Virus record (IMG/VR): IMGVR_UViG_2545824709_000006
From: a virus
Lineage: Duplodnaviria > Heunggongvirae > Uroviricota > Caudoviricetes
Length of the DNA stretch: 5,836 bases
Reading direction: 5' to 3' (one strand)
Shown here: positions 1-5,836 of the stretch, one piece after another
Position numbering within the stretch: position 1 is the first letter of the stretch
Layout: each line of letters begins with the position of its first letter
Notes under the pieces: generated by a model
The model's input: the letters and a program-made list of their open reading frames with translations, nothing else
Told to the model about the DNA's origin: nothing
Databases searched by the model: none
Made by a program: the position numbers and the translations under genes

Positions 1-300
1 TCTCAGTATGTATCGCTGGCCTACACACAGCGGCTTAAGGAAGCCGGATTACTGGCATCAACAGGAAGTACAGGCGACTCGTATGACAACGCGATGGCGG
101 AGAGCATCAATGGTCTTTACAAAGCGGAGGTAATACACCGTAAGAGCTGGAAAAACCGTGCAGAAGTGGAACTGGCCACACTCACGTGGGTGGACTGGTA
201 TAACAATCGACGATTGCTGGAAAGGCTGGGCCATACTCCTCCGGCAGAAGCAGAAAAAGCTTATTATGCTTCCATCGGAAACGATGATCTGGCAGCCTGA
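1..300 (+). CDS. IS3-family (IS629-like) DDE transposase OrfB, C-terminal fragment; 5' end lies outside the window
   Basis: Frame-1 ORF open from base 1 to TGA at 298-300. Translation ...GDSYDNAMAESINGLYKAEV...WYNNRRLLERLGHTPPAEAE... has the D-x-x-x-AMAES/W-Y-N-x-R-R signature typical of the C-terminus of rve-type (IS3-family) transposases, which includes the conserved glutamate region of the DDE catalytic domain. Confidence 0.85.
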   Translation, partial: SQYVSLAYTQRLKEAGLLASTGSTGDSYDNAMAESINGLYKAEVIHRKSWKNRAEVELATLTWVDWYNNRRLLERLGHTPPAEAEKAYYASIGNDDLAA

Positions 301-342
301 GTTCACAGATAAAACACTCTCCAGGAAACCCGGGGCGGTTCA
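1..342 (+). mobile_element. Right end of an IS629/IS1203/IS3411-like insertion sequence, with terminal inverted repeat at about 301-342
   Basis: The reverse complement of 301-342 is TGAACCGCCCCGGGTTTCCTGGAGAG..., which matches the IS629-group terminus as I recall it (5'-TGAACCGCCCCGGG...). The element ends ...GGTTCA at 342, giving the 5'-TG...CA-3' termini typical of the IS3 family. The left end and target-site duplication are outside the window. Confidence 0.6.
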
Positions 343-501
343 TTTCGATTAATGGAGGTCCCTTGCACAGATGGCAATCATGCTCAATGTCAAATTGCCA
401 TACAGGGCTTGCGATTCAGGGCGGTATTAGAGCTGCTAATGATCCTTTGTATTGCGCCTAAATCCACTAAATTGATTTTCAACAATCAACTTGCCATAAT
501 T

Positions 502-2143: not shown

Positions 2144-2527
2144 ATGCGTGATATTCAGATGGTTCTTGAGCGTTGGGGAGCGTGGGCGGCTAATAATCAT
2201 GAAGATGTGACCTGGTCGTCCATTGCCGCCGGTTTTAAGGGATTAATTACTTCAAAAGTAAAATCTCGCCCGCAATGTTGTGACGATGACGCGATGATTA
2301 TTTGCGGGTGCATGGCCCGTCTGAAAAAGAACAACAGCGATTTGCACGATTTATTAGTAGATTATTATGTAGTCGGTATGACATTCATGTCACTGGCAGG
2401 TAAGCATTGCTGCTCTGATGGTTATATCGGGAAAAGGTTACAGAAGGCTGAGGGCATAATTGAAGGGATGTTAATGGCATTAGATATCCGGTTAGAGATG
2501 GATATCGTTGTTAATAACTCTAATTAA
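2144..2527 (+). CDS. quuD: Q-family late-gene antitermination protein, 127 aa
   Basis: ATG at 2144. Product [26 protein letters not shown]...[16 protein letters not shown]... matches DLP12 QuuD (YbcQ) as I recall it. The in-frame TTG at 2129 reported by the ORF track is a less likely start. Confidence 0.85.
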
Positions 2528-2560
2528 TATGCCAATTGTTTACTAAAAATTATTAAAAAT

Positions 2561-2578
2561 GGGGCGTTGAGACGCCCC
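2561..2578 (-). terminator. Intrinsic terminator for - strand transcription (distal nmpC terminator); also shields quuD from antisense read-in
   Basis: GGGGCG / CGCCCC 6-bp GC stem with a 6-nt loop. On the - strand it is followed by ATTTTTAATAATTTTT; on the + strand it is followed by an A-rich run (CAAAAATAAA), so it should be far weaker for + strand transcription. Confidence 0.55.
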
Positions 2579-2644
2579 CAAAAATAAAGGGTAATATATA
2601 ACAGAAGGTTTATATAGTTAGAAGCAAGGTTGTGCTCCTAAAGG

Positions 2645-2700
2645 AAGTGGCTTGAGGGAGCCACTTATATGTTGGGGAGGCAAAGCCTCCCGCAACATAT
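2645..2700 (-). terminator. Tandem stem-loops immediately 3' of the nmpC stop codon (proximal terminator or mRNA-stabilising hairpins)
   Basis: Hairpin 2667-2700: ATATGTTGGGGAGG / CCTCCC(G)CAACATAT, a 14-bp stem with one bulge and a 5-nt loop. Hairpin 2645-2666: AAGTGGC / GCCACTT. On the - strand they lie 15-70 nt after the nmpC stop and are followed by TTCCTTTAGG. The first is followed by CTTTT on the + strand, so partial bidirectional activity is possible. Confidence 0.5.
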
Positions 2701-2715
2701 CTTTTAGTAATCAAA

Positions 2716-3798
2716 TTAGAACTGGTAAACCATACCTACAGCAACGATATCATCGGTAGCAACGCCAGATGCTTTCGTGAAATCGCTCTTATCAATCAGG
2801 TTGATTTTGTAATCAACAAAAGTGGACATATTTTTGTTGAAGTAATAGGTTGCACCTACATCAATATATTCAACCAGGTCCTGATCACCCCACGCACCCA
2901 AGTCTTTTCCTTTAGATTGCAGGTAAGCAACGGACGGACGCAGACCGAAGTCGAACTGATATTGTGCAACTACTTCGAAGTTTTGTGCTTTGTTGGCAAT
3001 ATGGTTATTACCAAAAACAGTCATGTTCTGGGTTTCAGAATAGGTGGTAGCCAGATAGATGTTGTTCGCATCATATTTCAGACCAGCTGCCCATACTTCA
3101 GCATTTTGACCAGATGCATTCAGGCTGTTGTTACCGTAGATAACCTGATTATTAGTGCGGTCAGATTTAGCATAGGTTGCACCTACACCGAATCCTTCAT
3201 ACTCATAAGTAGTGGAGAAACCGAAACCATCACCATTAGCTTCAGTTACGTCAGTGCGGTCATTTTTACCCTGATACTGAGCAGCAAAGTTCAGACCATC
3301 AACCAGACCAAAGAAGTCATTGTTACGATAAGTTGCAACACCTGTGGTGCGACCAGTCATGAATACATCTGTTTGGGTCCAGGTATCGCCACCGAATTCT
3401 GGCAGAACGTCGGTCCATGCACCAATATCGTATGCTACACCGTAGTTACGGCCATAATCGATGGAGCCGTAGTCACCGAATTTCAGGCCAGCGAAGGCAA
3501 GACGGGTTTTATCTTTGGAGGAACCTTGAGATTCAGCGCGGTTGCCTTTGAATTCATATTCCCACTGACCGAAACCAGTCAGTTGATCGTTGATTTGGGT
3601 TTCACCTTTGAAGCCAAGACGGGCATAAGTAGTATCACCATCATCTGCATCATTAGAGGAGAAGTAGTGCTTAGCATTAACTTTCCCGTACAGATCCAGC
3701 TTGTTACTGTCTTTATTATAAATTTCAGCTGCCTGAGCAGACATCGCCATCAGTACTGATGCAGCTACAGCAGAAATTGCCACTGTTAATTTTTTCAT
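2716..3798 (-). CDS. nmpC: Outer-membrane general porin of the OmpC/OmpF/PhoE family (NmpC/OmpD-like), 360-aa precursor, apparently intact
   Basis: ATG is the complement of 3796-3798, with an AAGGG Shine-Dalgarno upstream. N-terminus [30 protein letters not shown] is a classic signal peptide; the C-terminus ends ...VYQF with the terminal Phe typical of beta-barrel OMPs. Porin motifs such as LPEFGGDT and YDANNIYLA are conserved throughout. The longer track ORF (2716..3858) adds a 20-aa upstream extension that I reject. Confidence 0.9.
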
Positions 3799-4385
3799 CG
3801 TGAGCCCTTTTTTTGAACTATTATTAAAAAATGATGTCACTGCGCGATAAATATTCATCTAATCAATGTGATTATTTCAAGATGTAAGTTTTGGTTTCTC
3901 ATTTGATTTGTGAAGTAGATCTCTATTTTTATCTGAACTTTTTCTATCGAATCCTATTCATGGCTCTTGGCTGAATAAAAATAAATCTATTGGCCAATTT
4001 ATATTAATGGCTGTTATTTATAAGTGCTCTATAATTTGAAGGTTCAATTTAAACCAGCTAAAAATAACGCTGGAAATTATTTGTTGGTTATTTGTTGAGA
4101 TTTGCTTATGTATTTGTAGTGGTGTTTTCAATACTCGGTAGCATTCTCGCAAATATCATTTAGTGGTTTACGTACGTAAAAAATTGGTTATGCTGTTAAG
4201 AGTGGTTACTTCGTCACACAGCTTAAACCCGCCGTCGAGCGGGTTTTTCCATTTTTTGAGTCTCGATATTAGCTGATAACCCAATACCTGAGTTATTCAC
4301 TGACTCCGAGTCTGTTACGTTTCTGCTTTTTTGCGATACGTTGTATTCCCTCAATTTACACCCGCTTTGTCTGCGAGGTGGGGTT
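3799..4385. promoter_or_regulatory. Roughly 590-bp AT-rich divergent intergenic region holding the nmpC promoter and 5'UTR (- strand) and the leader upstream of essD (+ strand)
   Basis: No convincing ORF on either strand and markedly AT-rich. Contains a perfect TATAAT hexamer at 4030-4035 (+) without a good -35. Exact promoters could not be fixed by eye. Confidence 0.4.
4225..4257 (+). terminator. Intrinsic terminator on the + strand about 130 nt upstream of essD (candidate tR'-like late-leader terminator)
   Basis: AAACCCGC (4225-4232), loop CGTCGA, GCGGGTTT (4239-4246), all eight pairs Watson-Crick, followed by TTCCATTTTTT. On the - strand the same hairpin is followed only by TTTAAGC. Confidence 0.55.
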
Positions 4386-4601
4386 ATGAAATCCATGGAT
4401 AAGTTAACAACGGGTGTCGCCTATGGCACCTCAGCAGGTAGTGCCGGTTACTGGTTTTTACAGCTGCTCGATAAAGTCACGCCCTCACAGTGGGCAGCAA
4501 TAGGTGTGCTGGGTAGCTTGGTATTTGGCCTGCTGACGTACCTGACAAACCTTTATTTCAAGATTAAAGAAGATAAGCGCAAGGCTGCGAGAGGTGAATA
4601 A
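4386..4601 (+). CDS. essD: Class II holin (phage 21 S-like pinholin), 71 aa, with dual-start motif
   Basis: GAGGTGG precedes ATG at 4386. Product [71 protein letters not shown] has two hydrophobic segments and a charged C-terminus. Met1-Lys2-Ser3-Met4 gives two in-frame starts, the antiholin/holin arrangement known for S21. The track ORF 4341..4601 has a 15-codon extension that I reject. Confidence 0.9.
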
Positions 4602-5562: not shown

Positions 5563-5736
5563 TAGCGATAATTTTACTCATCATCCTTCACATCTGGCTC
5601 TGTAGACAGGGTGGTGCTCACTTCTGGAGTGAATCCAGATTAAACATCTCATTGCTGATGCTTGATATTGAGCATTTTGCGCGCGGTAAGGGGCTGCGTT
5701 GAGATAAGAGCCAGTCATTACAAATACCAGGATTTA

Positions 5737-5759
5737 GCCTCGCATTCGCGGGGCTTTTT
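5737..5759 (+). terminator. Intrinsic terminator closing the + strand lysis operon
   Basis: GCCTCGC (5737-5743), loop ATTC, GCGGGGC (5748-5754) forming a 7-bp GC-rich stem with one G-U pair, followed by TTTTT (5755-5759). Confidence 0.6.
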
Positions 5760-5771
5760 ATTGCCATTACA

Positions 5772-5797
5772 AAAGCCACTTCCTACAGAGTGGCTTT
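5772..5797 (-). terminator. Stem-loop with a T-tract on the - strand, a candidate terminator for a - strand gene beyond the 3' end of the window
   Basis: AAAGCCACT (5772-5780), 8-nt loop, AGTGGCTTT (5789-5797), a perfect 9-bp stem. On the - strand it is followed by TTTTGTAATGG. Together with 5737-5759 it forms a convergent terminator pair. Confidence 0.4.
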
Positions 5798-5836
5798 GAT
5801 AATGGTTTATACCCTACACGGGATAACTTAACTGAT

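What the first reader, a model, noticed from the sequence alone, without database searches (positions are those of the whole stretch)
2528..2715. No recognisable late promoter directly after quuD; the 188-bp gap is filled by strand-asymmetric terminators serving nmpC
In lambda, 21 and 82 the Q gene is followed immediately by pR', the qut site and tR'. Here the quuD stop at 2527 is followed within about 35 bp by a GC hairpin (2561-2578) whose U-tract is on the - strand, then by two more hairpins abutting the nmpC stop. I could not find a convincing -35/-10 pair in 2528-2600. So the Q gene appears uncoupled from its cis site by the nmpC insertion, and the hairpins look built to stop nmpC transcription from running antisense into quuD while being weaker against + strand transcription.
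Basis: partly seen in the sequence, partly recalled or inferred. Interest (0 to 1): 0.45.

Follow-up and report, generated by a model that had tools for sequence, protein, structure and literature searches.

The report
Porin cassette separating Q from pR'
The 188-bp gap after the prophage antiterminator gene quuD holds the transcription stops of a porin cargo cassette wedged between that gene and its late promoter, which lies 1.6 kb further on; this arrangement is long known and ordinary, although related phages carry many other cargo genes in the same slot.

Summary
quuD stops at 2527, nmpC (minus strand) stops at 2716, and the gap contains the three described hairpins plus two weaker ones. 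No sigma-70 consensus pair is present.

The missing late promoter is at 4167-4201, followed by a terminator hairpin at 4225-4246. That 85-bp module is 77-86% identical to the DNA that directly abuts Q in 933W/Sakai Sp5 and PhiR55_1. It is base-for-base identical in the viable phages mEp332 and 434B. Published dRNA-seq, Term-seq and RNase E mapping in Sp5 fits a start at the base equivalent to A4201.

Homology to relatives breaks at 2503/2504, eight codons before the quuD stop, and resumes at 4165/4166. So 2504-4165 is a discrete cassette.

The terminator reading is only half right. Hairpin 2561-2578 is a canonical minus-strand terminator for nmpC. The strongest hairpin, 2667-2700 (-22 kcal/mol), has its T-run on the plus strand, so the two look like a convergent pair.

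In 64 related loci the Q-to-pR' distance is bimodal: 25 are contiguous and 39 carry cargo. The cargo falls into 20 cassette types. Eighteen are antisense, and several are known defence systems.

The locus itself is already known (PA-2 lc, the lambda qsr' substitution, DLP12).

The parts
2144..2527 (+). quuD, a Q21-family late antiterminator (127 aa)
   Evidence: Pfam PF06530, E=3.5e-53. Matches the solved Q21 structures 6P1B/6JNX at E=7.6e-7. Annotated quuD in K-12 and in identical genomes.
2504..2527 (+). Cassette-encoded last 7 codons plus stop of quuD (IVVNNSN*); the left junction of the cassette is at 2503/2504
   Evidence: blastn homology to PhiR55_1 and 1H12 ends exactly at 2503, after the codons for LEMD. 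The Q tails that follow differ by cassette.
2543..2578 (-). Intrinsic terminator for nmpC: hairpin 2561-2578 plus a minus-strand U-run read from 2560 down to 2543
   Evidence: Terminator scan hit on the minus strand. dG -12.5 kcal/mol; tail ATTTTTAA on the minus strand against CAAAAATA on the plus strand. The stem is invariant and the loop variable in 7 alleles.
2595..2642 (-). Two weaker hairpins in the nmpC 3' UTR (2595-2616 and 2619-2642)
   Evidence: Present in the minimum-free-energy fold of the minus-strand RNA. 2619-2642 is more stable on the minus strand (-8.3 against -5.0 kcal/mol, through G-U pairs).
2645..2666 (.). 8-bp hairpin with no good U-run on either strand
   Evidence: The two innermost pairs are lost in ev017 and PhiR63_2.
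2667..2708 (+). Long bulged hairpin 2667-2700 followed by CTTTTAGT: candidate plus-strand terminator facing transcription that leaves quuD
   Evidence: dG -22.2 kcal/mol; 5 T in the first 8 nt on the plus strand, 2 on the minus strand. Tail is CTTTTTCG in 6 other alleles, and a G-to-C change in ev017 keeps the stem. The built-in scan missed it; the bulged stem is the likely reason.
2716..3798 (-). nmpC/lc-type porin gene, intact (360 aa)
   Evidence: Pfam Porin_1, E=3e-153. Annotated as a porin in identical genomes and as lc in phage PA-2.
3799..4165 (.). A+T-rich nmpC upstream region (28-30% G+C); the right junction of the cassette is at 4165/4166
   Evidence: Composition profile. Homology to cassette-free or other-cassette relatives resumes at 4166. 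The PA-2 record annotates CRP sites in this region.
4167..4201 (+). Late promoter pR' of the QuuD/933W type: -35 TTTACG 4167-4172, 16-nt spacer, -10 TATGCT 4189-4194, inferred start at A4201
   Evidence: 77-86% identity to the module that abuts Q in 933W and PhiR55_1. The 933W record annotates a putative pR' here. A TAnnnT hexamer is conserved in 7 of the 8 aligned relatives. The Sp5 mapping fits this start. Identical in the viable phages mEp332 and 434B.
4194..4252 (+). Conserved core TGTTAAGAGTGGTTAC plus the tR' hairpin 4225-4246 and its T-run
   Evidence: The most conserved block of the 8-sequence alignment. Terminator scan hit on the plus strand. dG -11.5 kcal/mol. Loop varies while the stem is kept.
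4386..4601 (+). essD, a phage-21-type pinholin and the first late gene
   Evidence: Pfam PF04971, E=2e-35. Annotation.

Best explanation
Window 2504-4165 is a self-contained accessory (moron-type) cassette carrying the porin gene nmpC on the strand opposite to the phage's rightward transcription. It occupies a slot between the conserved core of the Q21-family antiterminator gene quuD and that gene's own late promoter-terminator module. The module therefore lies at 4167-4252, just upstream of essD, rather than next to quuD. QuuD is a diffusible protein. It is inferred to act on RNA polymerase that starts at about A4201, letting it pass the hairpin at 4225-4246 into the lysis genes, so the 1.6-kb separation does not break the circuit. 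The 188-bp gap is the 3' flank of the cassette, where the quuD and nmpC transcripts converge. Hairpin 2561-2578 with its minus-strand U-run ends nmpC transcripts after a structured 3' UTR of about 140 nt. Hairpin 2667-2700 with its plus-strand U-run is placed to stop unmodified transcription that leaves quuD before it runs antisense into nmpC. Shown here: the coordinates, structures, homology junctions, identity to viable phages, and the distribution of cassettes. Inferred: termination on each strand, QuuD action at 4167-4252, and the start at 4201, which is transferred from Sakai Sp5.
For: Hairpins and the strand of their tails. In 7 alleles, substitutions fall in the loop of 2561-2578 and spare its stem. 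Window 4166-4248 matches the DNA directly downstream of Q in 933W-type Stx phages (77-78%) and PhiR55_1 (86%). The 933W record annotates a putative pR' and tR' there, and its promoter is the only plus-strand consensus hit in that region. In Sakai Sp5, which is identical to 933W here, Sy et al. report three measurements: a dRNA-seq start 258 nt before the Term-seq 3' end, and RNase E cleavage at a GU|AUU motif at +173. In the 933W sequence these fit only a start at base 736, the A of TAAGAG, with GTATT at 907-911 and the second terminator ending near 993. Base 736 aligns with window A4201. Phage 21 shows the family's canonical layout: -35, QBE, -10, start, pause element and terminator within about 90 bp, beginning 7 nt after Q. 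Homology junctions lie at 2503 and 4166. Viable phages with the same Q-porin-S layout have an identical module. In 64 loci the Q-to-pR' gap is bimodal: 25 at 18-70 nt and 39 at 630-2934 nt. The cargo falls into 20 clusters, 18 of them antisense.
Against: No transcript ends were mapped in this strain. The plus-strand U-run after 2667-2700 has only four consecutive U here, and the base of the stem is A-U rich, so termination may be weak. N-modified transcription from pR would ignore both terminators in any case. No Q21-style pair of 8-bp direct repeats and no clear -10-like pause element were found at 4167-4215, so the Q-loading site is not identified. The promoter is weak by consensus (8 of 12) and was not reported by the scan in the window. 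In Sakai the equivalent first hairpin is evidently read through to give a 258-nt RNA, so its efficiency as tR' is uncertain. Published K-12 work places a sigma-E start for the lysis genes near 3847, inside the cassette. pR' may therefore not be the only route to essD. The direction of evolution, insertion or loss, is not established.
Confidence: 0.8

Rival explanations
1. One reading: all three hairpins form a one-way terminator array for nmpC that protects quuD from antisense transcription and is deliberately leaky to plus-strand transcription.
For: Hairpin 2561-2578 is minus-strand only. The whole gap folds better as minus-strand RNA (z -9.9 against -5.2), and 2619-2642 is more stable on that strand.
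Against: On the minus strand, 2667-2700 and 2645-2666 are followed by AAGTGGCT and CCTTTAGG, which are not U-runs. On the plus strand, 2667-2700 is followed by CTTTT(T). Several sister cassettes place plus-strand terminators right after Q.
Confidence: 0.12
2. A diverged, unrecognised pR'/qut still sits in 2528-2640, and the module at 4167-4252 is a second or unrelated promoter.
For: The near miss TTGAGA (2567-2572), 17 nt, GGTAAT (2590-2595), read directly from the sequence.
Against: The scan finds no site. The near miss lacks the A at position 2 of the -10, and its -35 lies in the hairpin loop, which changes to TTGCAA or TGGAAA in other alleles. The whole of 2504-4165 is cassette-specific and absent from relatives that keep the same Q core. 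The family's conserved module is at 4166-4252.
Confidence: 0.03
3. The gap's dense structure is more than terminators. The 140-nt nmpC 3' UTR, ending in hairpin 2561-2578 with a U-tail and preceded by UUUAUUUUU, yields a 3'-UTR-derived regulatory RNA or an mRNA-stabilising element. This could be true alongside the main explanation.
For: z = -9.9 for the minus-strand RNA. The 3' UTR is unusually long. G-U pairs favour the minus strand. The segment is well conserved across alleles.
Against: No Rfam family matches, even at E<=1. All known copies are at least 91% identical, so covariation cannot be tested. No expression data are available.
Confidence: 0.1
4. The separation is decay of a cryptic prophage: Q no longer controls the lysis genes.
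For: The window is a DLP12-type defective prophage with an IS fragment at its left end. A host sigma-E promoter is reported for the lysis cassette.
Against: The same layout, with an identical pR'-tR' module, is present in plaque-forming phages: mEp332, the PhiR series, ev243 and PA-2. It is also present in the 434B hybrid that acquired exactly this DLP12 segment.
Confidence: 0.04

Closest known systems
Phage 21 late regulatory cassette (Q21, pR'21, QBE, sigma-dependent pause element, terminator)
   Same: Same Q protein family (PF06530). Same kind of compact promoter-terminator module, with a terminator hairpin within about 50 nt of the start. The same phage-21-type pinholin and SAR-endolysin lysis genes lie downstream.
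   Different: In phage 21 the -35 begins 7 nt after the Q stop, and the QBE is two 8-bp direct repeats in the spacer. Here the module is 1.64 kb from Q. No such repeats are seen; a 14-bp palindrome overlaps the -35 instead. QuuD matches Q21 only weakly (E=7.6e-7 over about 80 residues).
933W / Sakai Sp5 Q-pR'-StxS region of Shiga-toxin phages
   Same: Q is about 78% identical and the pR' core 77% identical, including TGnTAAGAGTGGTTAC and the first hairpin. The start was mapped experimentally in Sp5.
   Different: There Q runs straight into pR', so its last codons overlap the -35. A second terminator 258 nt downstream defines the StxS RNA. The window has the nmpC cassette between Q and pR' and no second terminator before essD.
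lc porin gene of phage PA-2, and nmpC in the qsr'/DLP12 prophage of E. coli K-12
   Same: The same cassette. PA-2 is 97.8% identical across 2504-2730, and K-12 and 434B carry it with IS5 inserted in nmpC.
   Different: Here nmpC is intact. The window's plus-strand tail after 2667-2700 has one T fewer.
Phage morons (accessory gene with its own promoter and terminator between genes that are adjacent in relatives; e.g. lambda bor/lom, HK97)
   Same: Flanking genes are adjacent in relatives. The cassette has its own terminator and an A+T-rich upstream regulatory region, and its composition differs from its surroundings.
   Different: The left junction lies inside the coding sequence of the neighbouring gene, so the cassette supplies the last codons of Q.
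[quoted passage not shown] 2022, PMC9122126)
   Same: A fixed position between conserved phage genes that holds many alternative cargo cassettes, including known defence systems.
   Different: A different phage group and position (between Q and pR' of lambdoid phages). Cargo here also includes a porin, a lipocalin and an esterase. I could not establish whether this slot has already been described.

Membership tests
Q21-type Q-dependent late cassette | Q protein of the Phage_antitermQ family | tested here: met
   PF06530, E=3.5e-53, full-length match. Q21 structures match at E=7.6e-7.
Q21-type Q-dependent late cassette | Late promoter immediately downstream of the Q gene | tested here: not met
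   No promoter in 2528-2715. The homologous module lies at 4167-4252, 1.64 kb away. The contiguous arrangement is seen in phage 21, 933W and 1720a-02.
Q21-type Q-dependent late cassette | Sigma-70 promoter with a mapped start | tested here: inconclusive
   TTTACG, 16 nt, TATGCT is only 8 of 12 to consensus. The start at A4201 is transferred from the Sp5 mapping through a 77% identical alignment. It was not mapped in this sequence.
Q21-type Q-dependent late cassette | Q binding element: two 8-bp direct repeats between -35 and -10 (ATTGAGCA / AATGAGCA in phage 21) | tested here: not met
   No such repeats at 4167-4194. A palindrome, TTTACGTACGTAAA, is present instead. The QuuD-type binding site is unknown.
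Q21-type Q-dependent late cassette | -10-like sigma-dependent pause element just after the start | tested here: inconclusive
   TAAGAG (4197-4202) resembles phage 21's TAAGCTG but spans the inferred start. AGTGGTTAC is invariant in 7 of 8 relatives, with unknown role.
Q21-type Q-dependent late cassette | Intrinsic terminator between the promoter and the late genes | tested here: met
   Hairpin 4225-4246 plus T-run, reported by the scan. dG -11.5 kcal/mol. Stem conserved with a variable loop.
Q21-type Q-dependent late cassette | Q-dependent read-through of the terminator | not testable with these tools
   Needs in vitro transcription or a reporter assay with QuuD.
Moron (accessory cassette) | Flanking genes or sites are adjacent in related phages | tested here: met
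   25 of 64 loci have Q and pR' 18-70 nt apart. Junctions lie at 2503 and 4166.
Moron (accessory cassette) | Own terminator | tested here: met
   Minus-strand terminator 2561-2578 by sequence criteria. Function not measured.
Moron (accessory cassette) | Own promoter, expressed from the prophage | not tested
   The upstream region is A+T-rich, and the PA-2 record annotates CRP sites. No promoter was located here.
Rho-independent terminator | G+C-rich stem, short loop, and U-run immediately 3' on the transcribed strand | tested here: met
   Met for 2561-2578 on the minus strand. Partly met for 2667-2700 on the plus strand (bulged stem, 4-5 U). Not met for 2645-2666 on either strand.
Bidirectional terminator | One hairpin flanked by an A-run 5' and a U-run 3' so that it works on both strands | tested here: not met
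   2561-2578 has A-rich sequence on both sides of the plus strand. 2667-2700 has a T-run on one side only.

The most novel reading that the evidence does not exclude
The junction between the Q core and pR' in QuuD/933W-type lambdoid phages is a dedicated exchange slot for accessory and anti-phage defence cassettes, and it may not have been described as such. Its recombination junctions are fixed: after the LEMD codons of Q on one side and at the -35 of pR' on the other. Cargo is almost always antisense to phage transcription and insulated by hairpins, and each cassette supplies its own C-terminal tail to Q. The nmpC gap is then one instance of a general design rule rather than a peculiarity of DLP12.
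Probability: 0.35. Interest if true: 0.5.

Novelty: already known. Interest (0 to 1): 0.25.

Why it matters
For annotation, late promoters of Q21/933W-type prophages should be sought by homology to the conserved pR' core, not by position next to Q. The core can be up to about 3 kb away, behind antisense cargo. For DLP12 biology, the analysis places the QuuD-responsive module at 4167-4252. That is distinct from the sigma-E start near 3847, which lies inside the cassette. For phage genomics, the slot is an easily searchable place to look for lysogenic-conversion and defence genes. The finding as written adds little that is new: a porin gene between Q and the lysis genes has been known since PA-2 lc and the qsr' prophage were described.

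Tried and rejected
- An Rfam search of the whole window at E<=1 found nothing in the gap. The only hit was a sub-threshold STnc560 match at 5634-5825.
- The search for related loci with QuuD returned 80 identical copies, which was useless for diversity. I replaced it with a scan for the pR' core motif.
- The Rueggeberg 2013 and 2015 and Toba 2011 papers on DLP12 Q and lysis regulation are not held. I could only infer their +1 from a later paper's primer and its '-121' coordinate. The reverse primer as printed does not match the window within 3 mismatches.
- The sequences of the Q21 QBE and pause element were not in the text of Yin et al.. I took them from the phage 21 GenBank annotation instead.
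- I looked for Q21-style direct repeats at pR' and found none.
- I considered that window 4095-4165 is a relic of a longer 933W-like Q C-terminus. MAFFT aligns TTGAGAT there, but the similarity is weak and blastn does not find it, so I dropped the idea.
- I considered that the 9-bp inverted repeat TTACTAAAA / TTTTAGTAA (2541-2549 and 2702-2710) marks a small mobile element. It is not kept in the other alleles, so I rejected this.
- Sakai coordinates in Sy et al. do not fit NC_002695.2 directly. I relied on internal distances (258 nt; +173 at GU|AUU) rather than absolute coordinates.
- Literature searches did not show whether the Q-pR' slot has been described as a hotspot.

Full report
**What the window is.** The window is the late-regulatory and lysis region of a DLP12-type lambdoid prophage of E. 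coli. It runs ybcN, ninE, ybcO, rusA, ylcG, quuD (2144-2527), an intact porin gene nmpC on the minus strand (2716-3798), then essD, rrrD and rzpD. QuuD is a full-length member of the Q21 antiterminator family (PF06530, E=3.5e-53). It matches the solved Q21 structures (E=7.6e-7). EssD is a phage-21-type pinholin.

**The observation.** It holds.
- The quuD stop is at 2525-2527 and the nmpC stop at 2716-2718, so the gap is 188 bp.
- Hairpin 2561-2578 (7 bp, 6 G-C) has its T-run on the minus strand only.
- Hairpins 2645-2666 and 2667-2700 abut the nmpC stop.
- Two weaker hairpins, 2595-2616 and 2619-2642, complete a very structured segment. The z-score against shuffles is -9.9 for the minus-strand RNA and -5.2 for the plus-strand RNA.
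- The consensus scan finds no sigma-70 promoter in the gap. Only about 0.5 chance matches would be expected in 188 bp, so this absence alone says little.

**Where the late promoter is.**
- A search with the region upstream of essD showed that window 4166-4248 is 77-78% identical to the DNA that directly follows Q in 933W-type Stx phages. It is 86% identical to the equivalent DNA in PhiR55_1.
- The 933W record annotates a putative pR' and tR' on exactly that stretch. Its TTTACG, 16 nt, TATCAT pair is the only plus-strand promoter-like hit there.
- An alignment of eight relatives shows a TAnnnT hexamer, conserved in seven of the eight, at window 4189-4194 (TATGCT). It is followed by the nearly invariant TGTTAAGAGTGGTTAC and a hairpin with a conserved stem and a variable loop (4225-4246).
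- Sy et al. 2020 mapped the pR' start in Sakai Sp5 by dRNA-seq. It lies 258 nt upstream of the Term-seq 3' end, with RNase E cleavage at a GU|AUU motif at +173.
- Sp5 is identical to 933W here. In that sequence these three numbers fit only a start at the A of TAAGAG (L003 base 736), with GTATT at 907-911 and a second terminator ending near 993. That base aligns with window A4201.
- The absolute coordinates in the paper do not match the current Sakai record, so this rests on internal distances.
- Phage 21, annotated from experimental work, shows the family's compact layout. The -35 lies 7 nt after the Q stop, the QBE lies in the spacer, and the start, the pause element and the terminator all fall within about 50 nt.
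- The window's module from 4149 to 4252 is base-for-base identical in K-12 DLP12, in the plaque-forming phage mEp332, and in the 434B hybrid that picked up this very DLP12 segment. It is therefore the working late promoter of viable phages.

**The cassette.** blastn against relatives that carry a similar Q but different neighbours shows homology ending at 2503 and resuming at 4166.
- The left junction lies inside quuD, after the codons for LEMD. The last seven codons (IVVNNSN) and the stop therefore belong to the cassette.
- Other cassettes give Q other tails: R, ADCLR and DWLLKK. In 933W, which has no cassette, Q reads on for 24 residues into the -35 of pR'.
- The cassette (2504-4165) comprises the structured gap, nmpC, and a 28-30% G+C upstream region.
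- The same cassette is the lc gene region of phage PA-2 (97.8% identical across the gap). It is also nmpC::IS5 of K-12.
- From my own knowledge, the location of nmpC/lc between Q and the lysis genes of the qsr' prophage and PA-2 was published in the mid-1980s (Highton et al. 1985; Blasband et al. 1986). I could not retrieve those papers here.

**The hairpins, strand by strand.**
- 2561-2578: dG -12.5 kcal/mol. The minus-strand tail is ATTTTTAATAAT and the plus-strand tail CAAAAATAAAGG. This is a canonical one-way terminator for nmpC, about 140 nt past its stop. In seven alleles its stem is invariant while its loop reads TTGAGA, TTGCAA or TGGAAA.
- 2667-2700: dG -22.2 kcal/mol. The plus-strand tail is CTTTTAGT here and CTTTTTCG in six other alleles. 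The minus-strand tail is AAGTGGCT. The built-in scan did not report it, probably because of its bulge. By sequence it faces plus-strand transcription coming out of quuD.
- 2645-2666 has no good U-run on either strand.
- 2619-2642 is more stable on the minus strand.

So the gap reads as a convergent pair of terminators whose positions cross over. The quuD and nmpC transcripts would overlap by about 140 nt. Other cassettes in the same slot often carry a G+C-rich hairpin with a plus-strand T-run within 10-50 nt of the Q stop (PhiR55_1, 1H12, L102, L119, L152, L163). None of this was measured, and N-modified polymerase would ignore both terminators.

**A broader pattern.** I scanned IMG/VR for the pR' core motif and located the nearest upstream Q-family gene in each hit.
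- Among 64 loci with a Q, the distance from Q to the motif is bimodal: 18-70 nt in 25 loci and 630-2934 nt in 39, with nothing between.
- The 39 cargo-bearing gaps fall into 20 sequence clusters. In 18 of them the long ORFs lie on the strand opposite to Q.
- Besides the porin (12 loci), the cargo includes:
  - KwaB of Kiwa (E=2e-150) with a membrane partner;
  - a PDC-S20 KAP-type NTPase (E=1e-177);
  - a Dcm-like methylase with a HEC-04-like ATPase;
  - a PDC-M68A HNH protein;
  - a weak NYN match;
  - an alpha/beta hydrolase and an NA37 nucleoid-associated-type protein;
  - several two-gene sets with no match.
- Deposited phages show the same pattern: a lipocalin in 1H12, and unknown genes in PhiR55_1, mEp460, SfII, Stx1_14040 and phi467.

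I could not determine from the held literature whether this slot has been described as a hotspot. The PhiR phages come from a recent ECOR prophage study that I could not read.

**Verdict.** The statement that Q is separated from its site is correct and now has a positive answer for where the site is. The terminator interpretation is half right. The locus and arrangement are long known and ordinary, so interest in the finding as stated is low. The general slot is the only part that might be new.

**Unresolved.**
- The QuuD-type binding and pause elements are not identified. There are no Q21-like direct repeats, and a dyad overlaps the -35 instead.
- The efficiency of the first hairpin as tR' is uncertain, because its Sp5 equivalent is read through to give the 258-nt StxS RNA.
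- The relation between pR' and the sigma-E start reported near 3847 is unclear.

Noticed in passing
window 2504-4165; loci L098-L177, L006-L009, L016, L017: The Q-to-pR' junction is a variable cargo slot. In 64 loci, 25 are contiguous and 39 carry one of 20 cassette types. Eighteen types are antisense, and they include Kiwa, PDC-S20, PDC-M68A, a Dcm plus ATPase pair, an esterase, a lipocalin and the porin.
   Followed up: yes
window 2504-2527; L003 640-714; L006 900-905; L009 2861-2878; L015: The C-terminal tail of Q after the conserved LEMD differs by cassette: IVVNNSN, R, ADCLR, DWLLKK, or a 24-residue tail in 933W. In Q21 the last six residues contact RNA polymerase (Yin et al.), so these swaps might matter, or the tail may be dispensable in this subfamily.
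   Followed up: partly
window 4167-4180 and aligned positions in A3: A dyad overlaps the -35 of pR' and keeps its symmetry while changing sequence among Q subtypes. It reads TTTACGTACGTAAA (window), TTTACGATCGTAAA (933W), GCGTACGC (mEp460, SfII, Stx1_14040) and GCGGTCCGC (1720a-02). It may be the binding site of this Q subfamily in place of Q21's direct repeats.
   Followed up: partly
window 3815-3847, + strand: GAACTA (3815-3820), 16 nt, TCACT (3837-3841) fits a sigma-E promoter. A published lysis-promoter construct described as -121 to +650 has its forward primer at 3726, which puts the published +1 near 3847. This start lies inside the nmpC cassette, diverges from nmpC, and is upstream of pR' and tR'.
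   Followed up: partly
L003 759-784 and 966-993; window 4225-4385: In 933W/Sp5 the first hairpin (+24 to +49) is evidently read through to give the 258-nt StxS RNA, which ends at a second terminator. The window has only the first hairpin before essD, so any StxS-like product here would be about 50 nt.
   Followed up: partly
window 2541-2549 and 2702-2710: A 9-bp inverted repeat, TTACTAAAA / TTTTAGTAA, brackets the structured gap and pairs in both predicted folds. It has a mismatch in the other alleles, so it is probably chance.
   Followed up: yes
window 1-350: The 3' end of a transposase-like ORF (94-300) lies at the left edge, where K-12 DLP12 has ybcM and ylcH upstream of ybcN. This looks like an IS insertion or truncation in this prophage copy.
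   Followed up: no
window 5634-5825, + strand: A weak, sub-threshold Rfam match to STnc560 (20.5 bits against a gathering score of 55; E=0.44) spans two terminator-like hairpins downstream of rzpD. Probably chance.
   Followed up: no
L010 1434-1454 and 1730-1750 (about window 3922-3942 and 4218-4238): The 1986 PA-2 record annotates two putative CRP sites. The second overlaps what is now recognisable as the pR' transcribed region and the tR' hairpin (TCACACAGC...).
   Followed up: no
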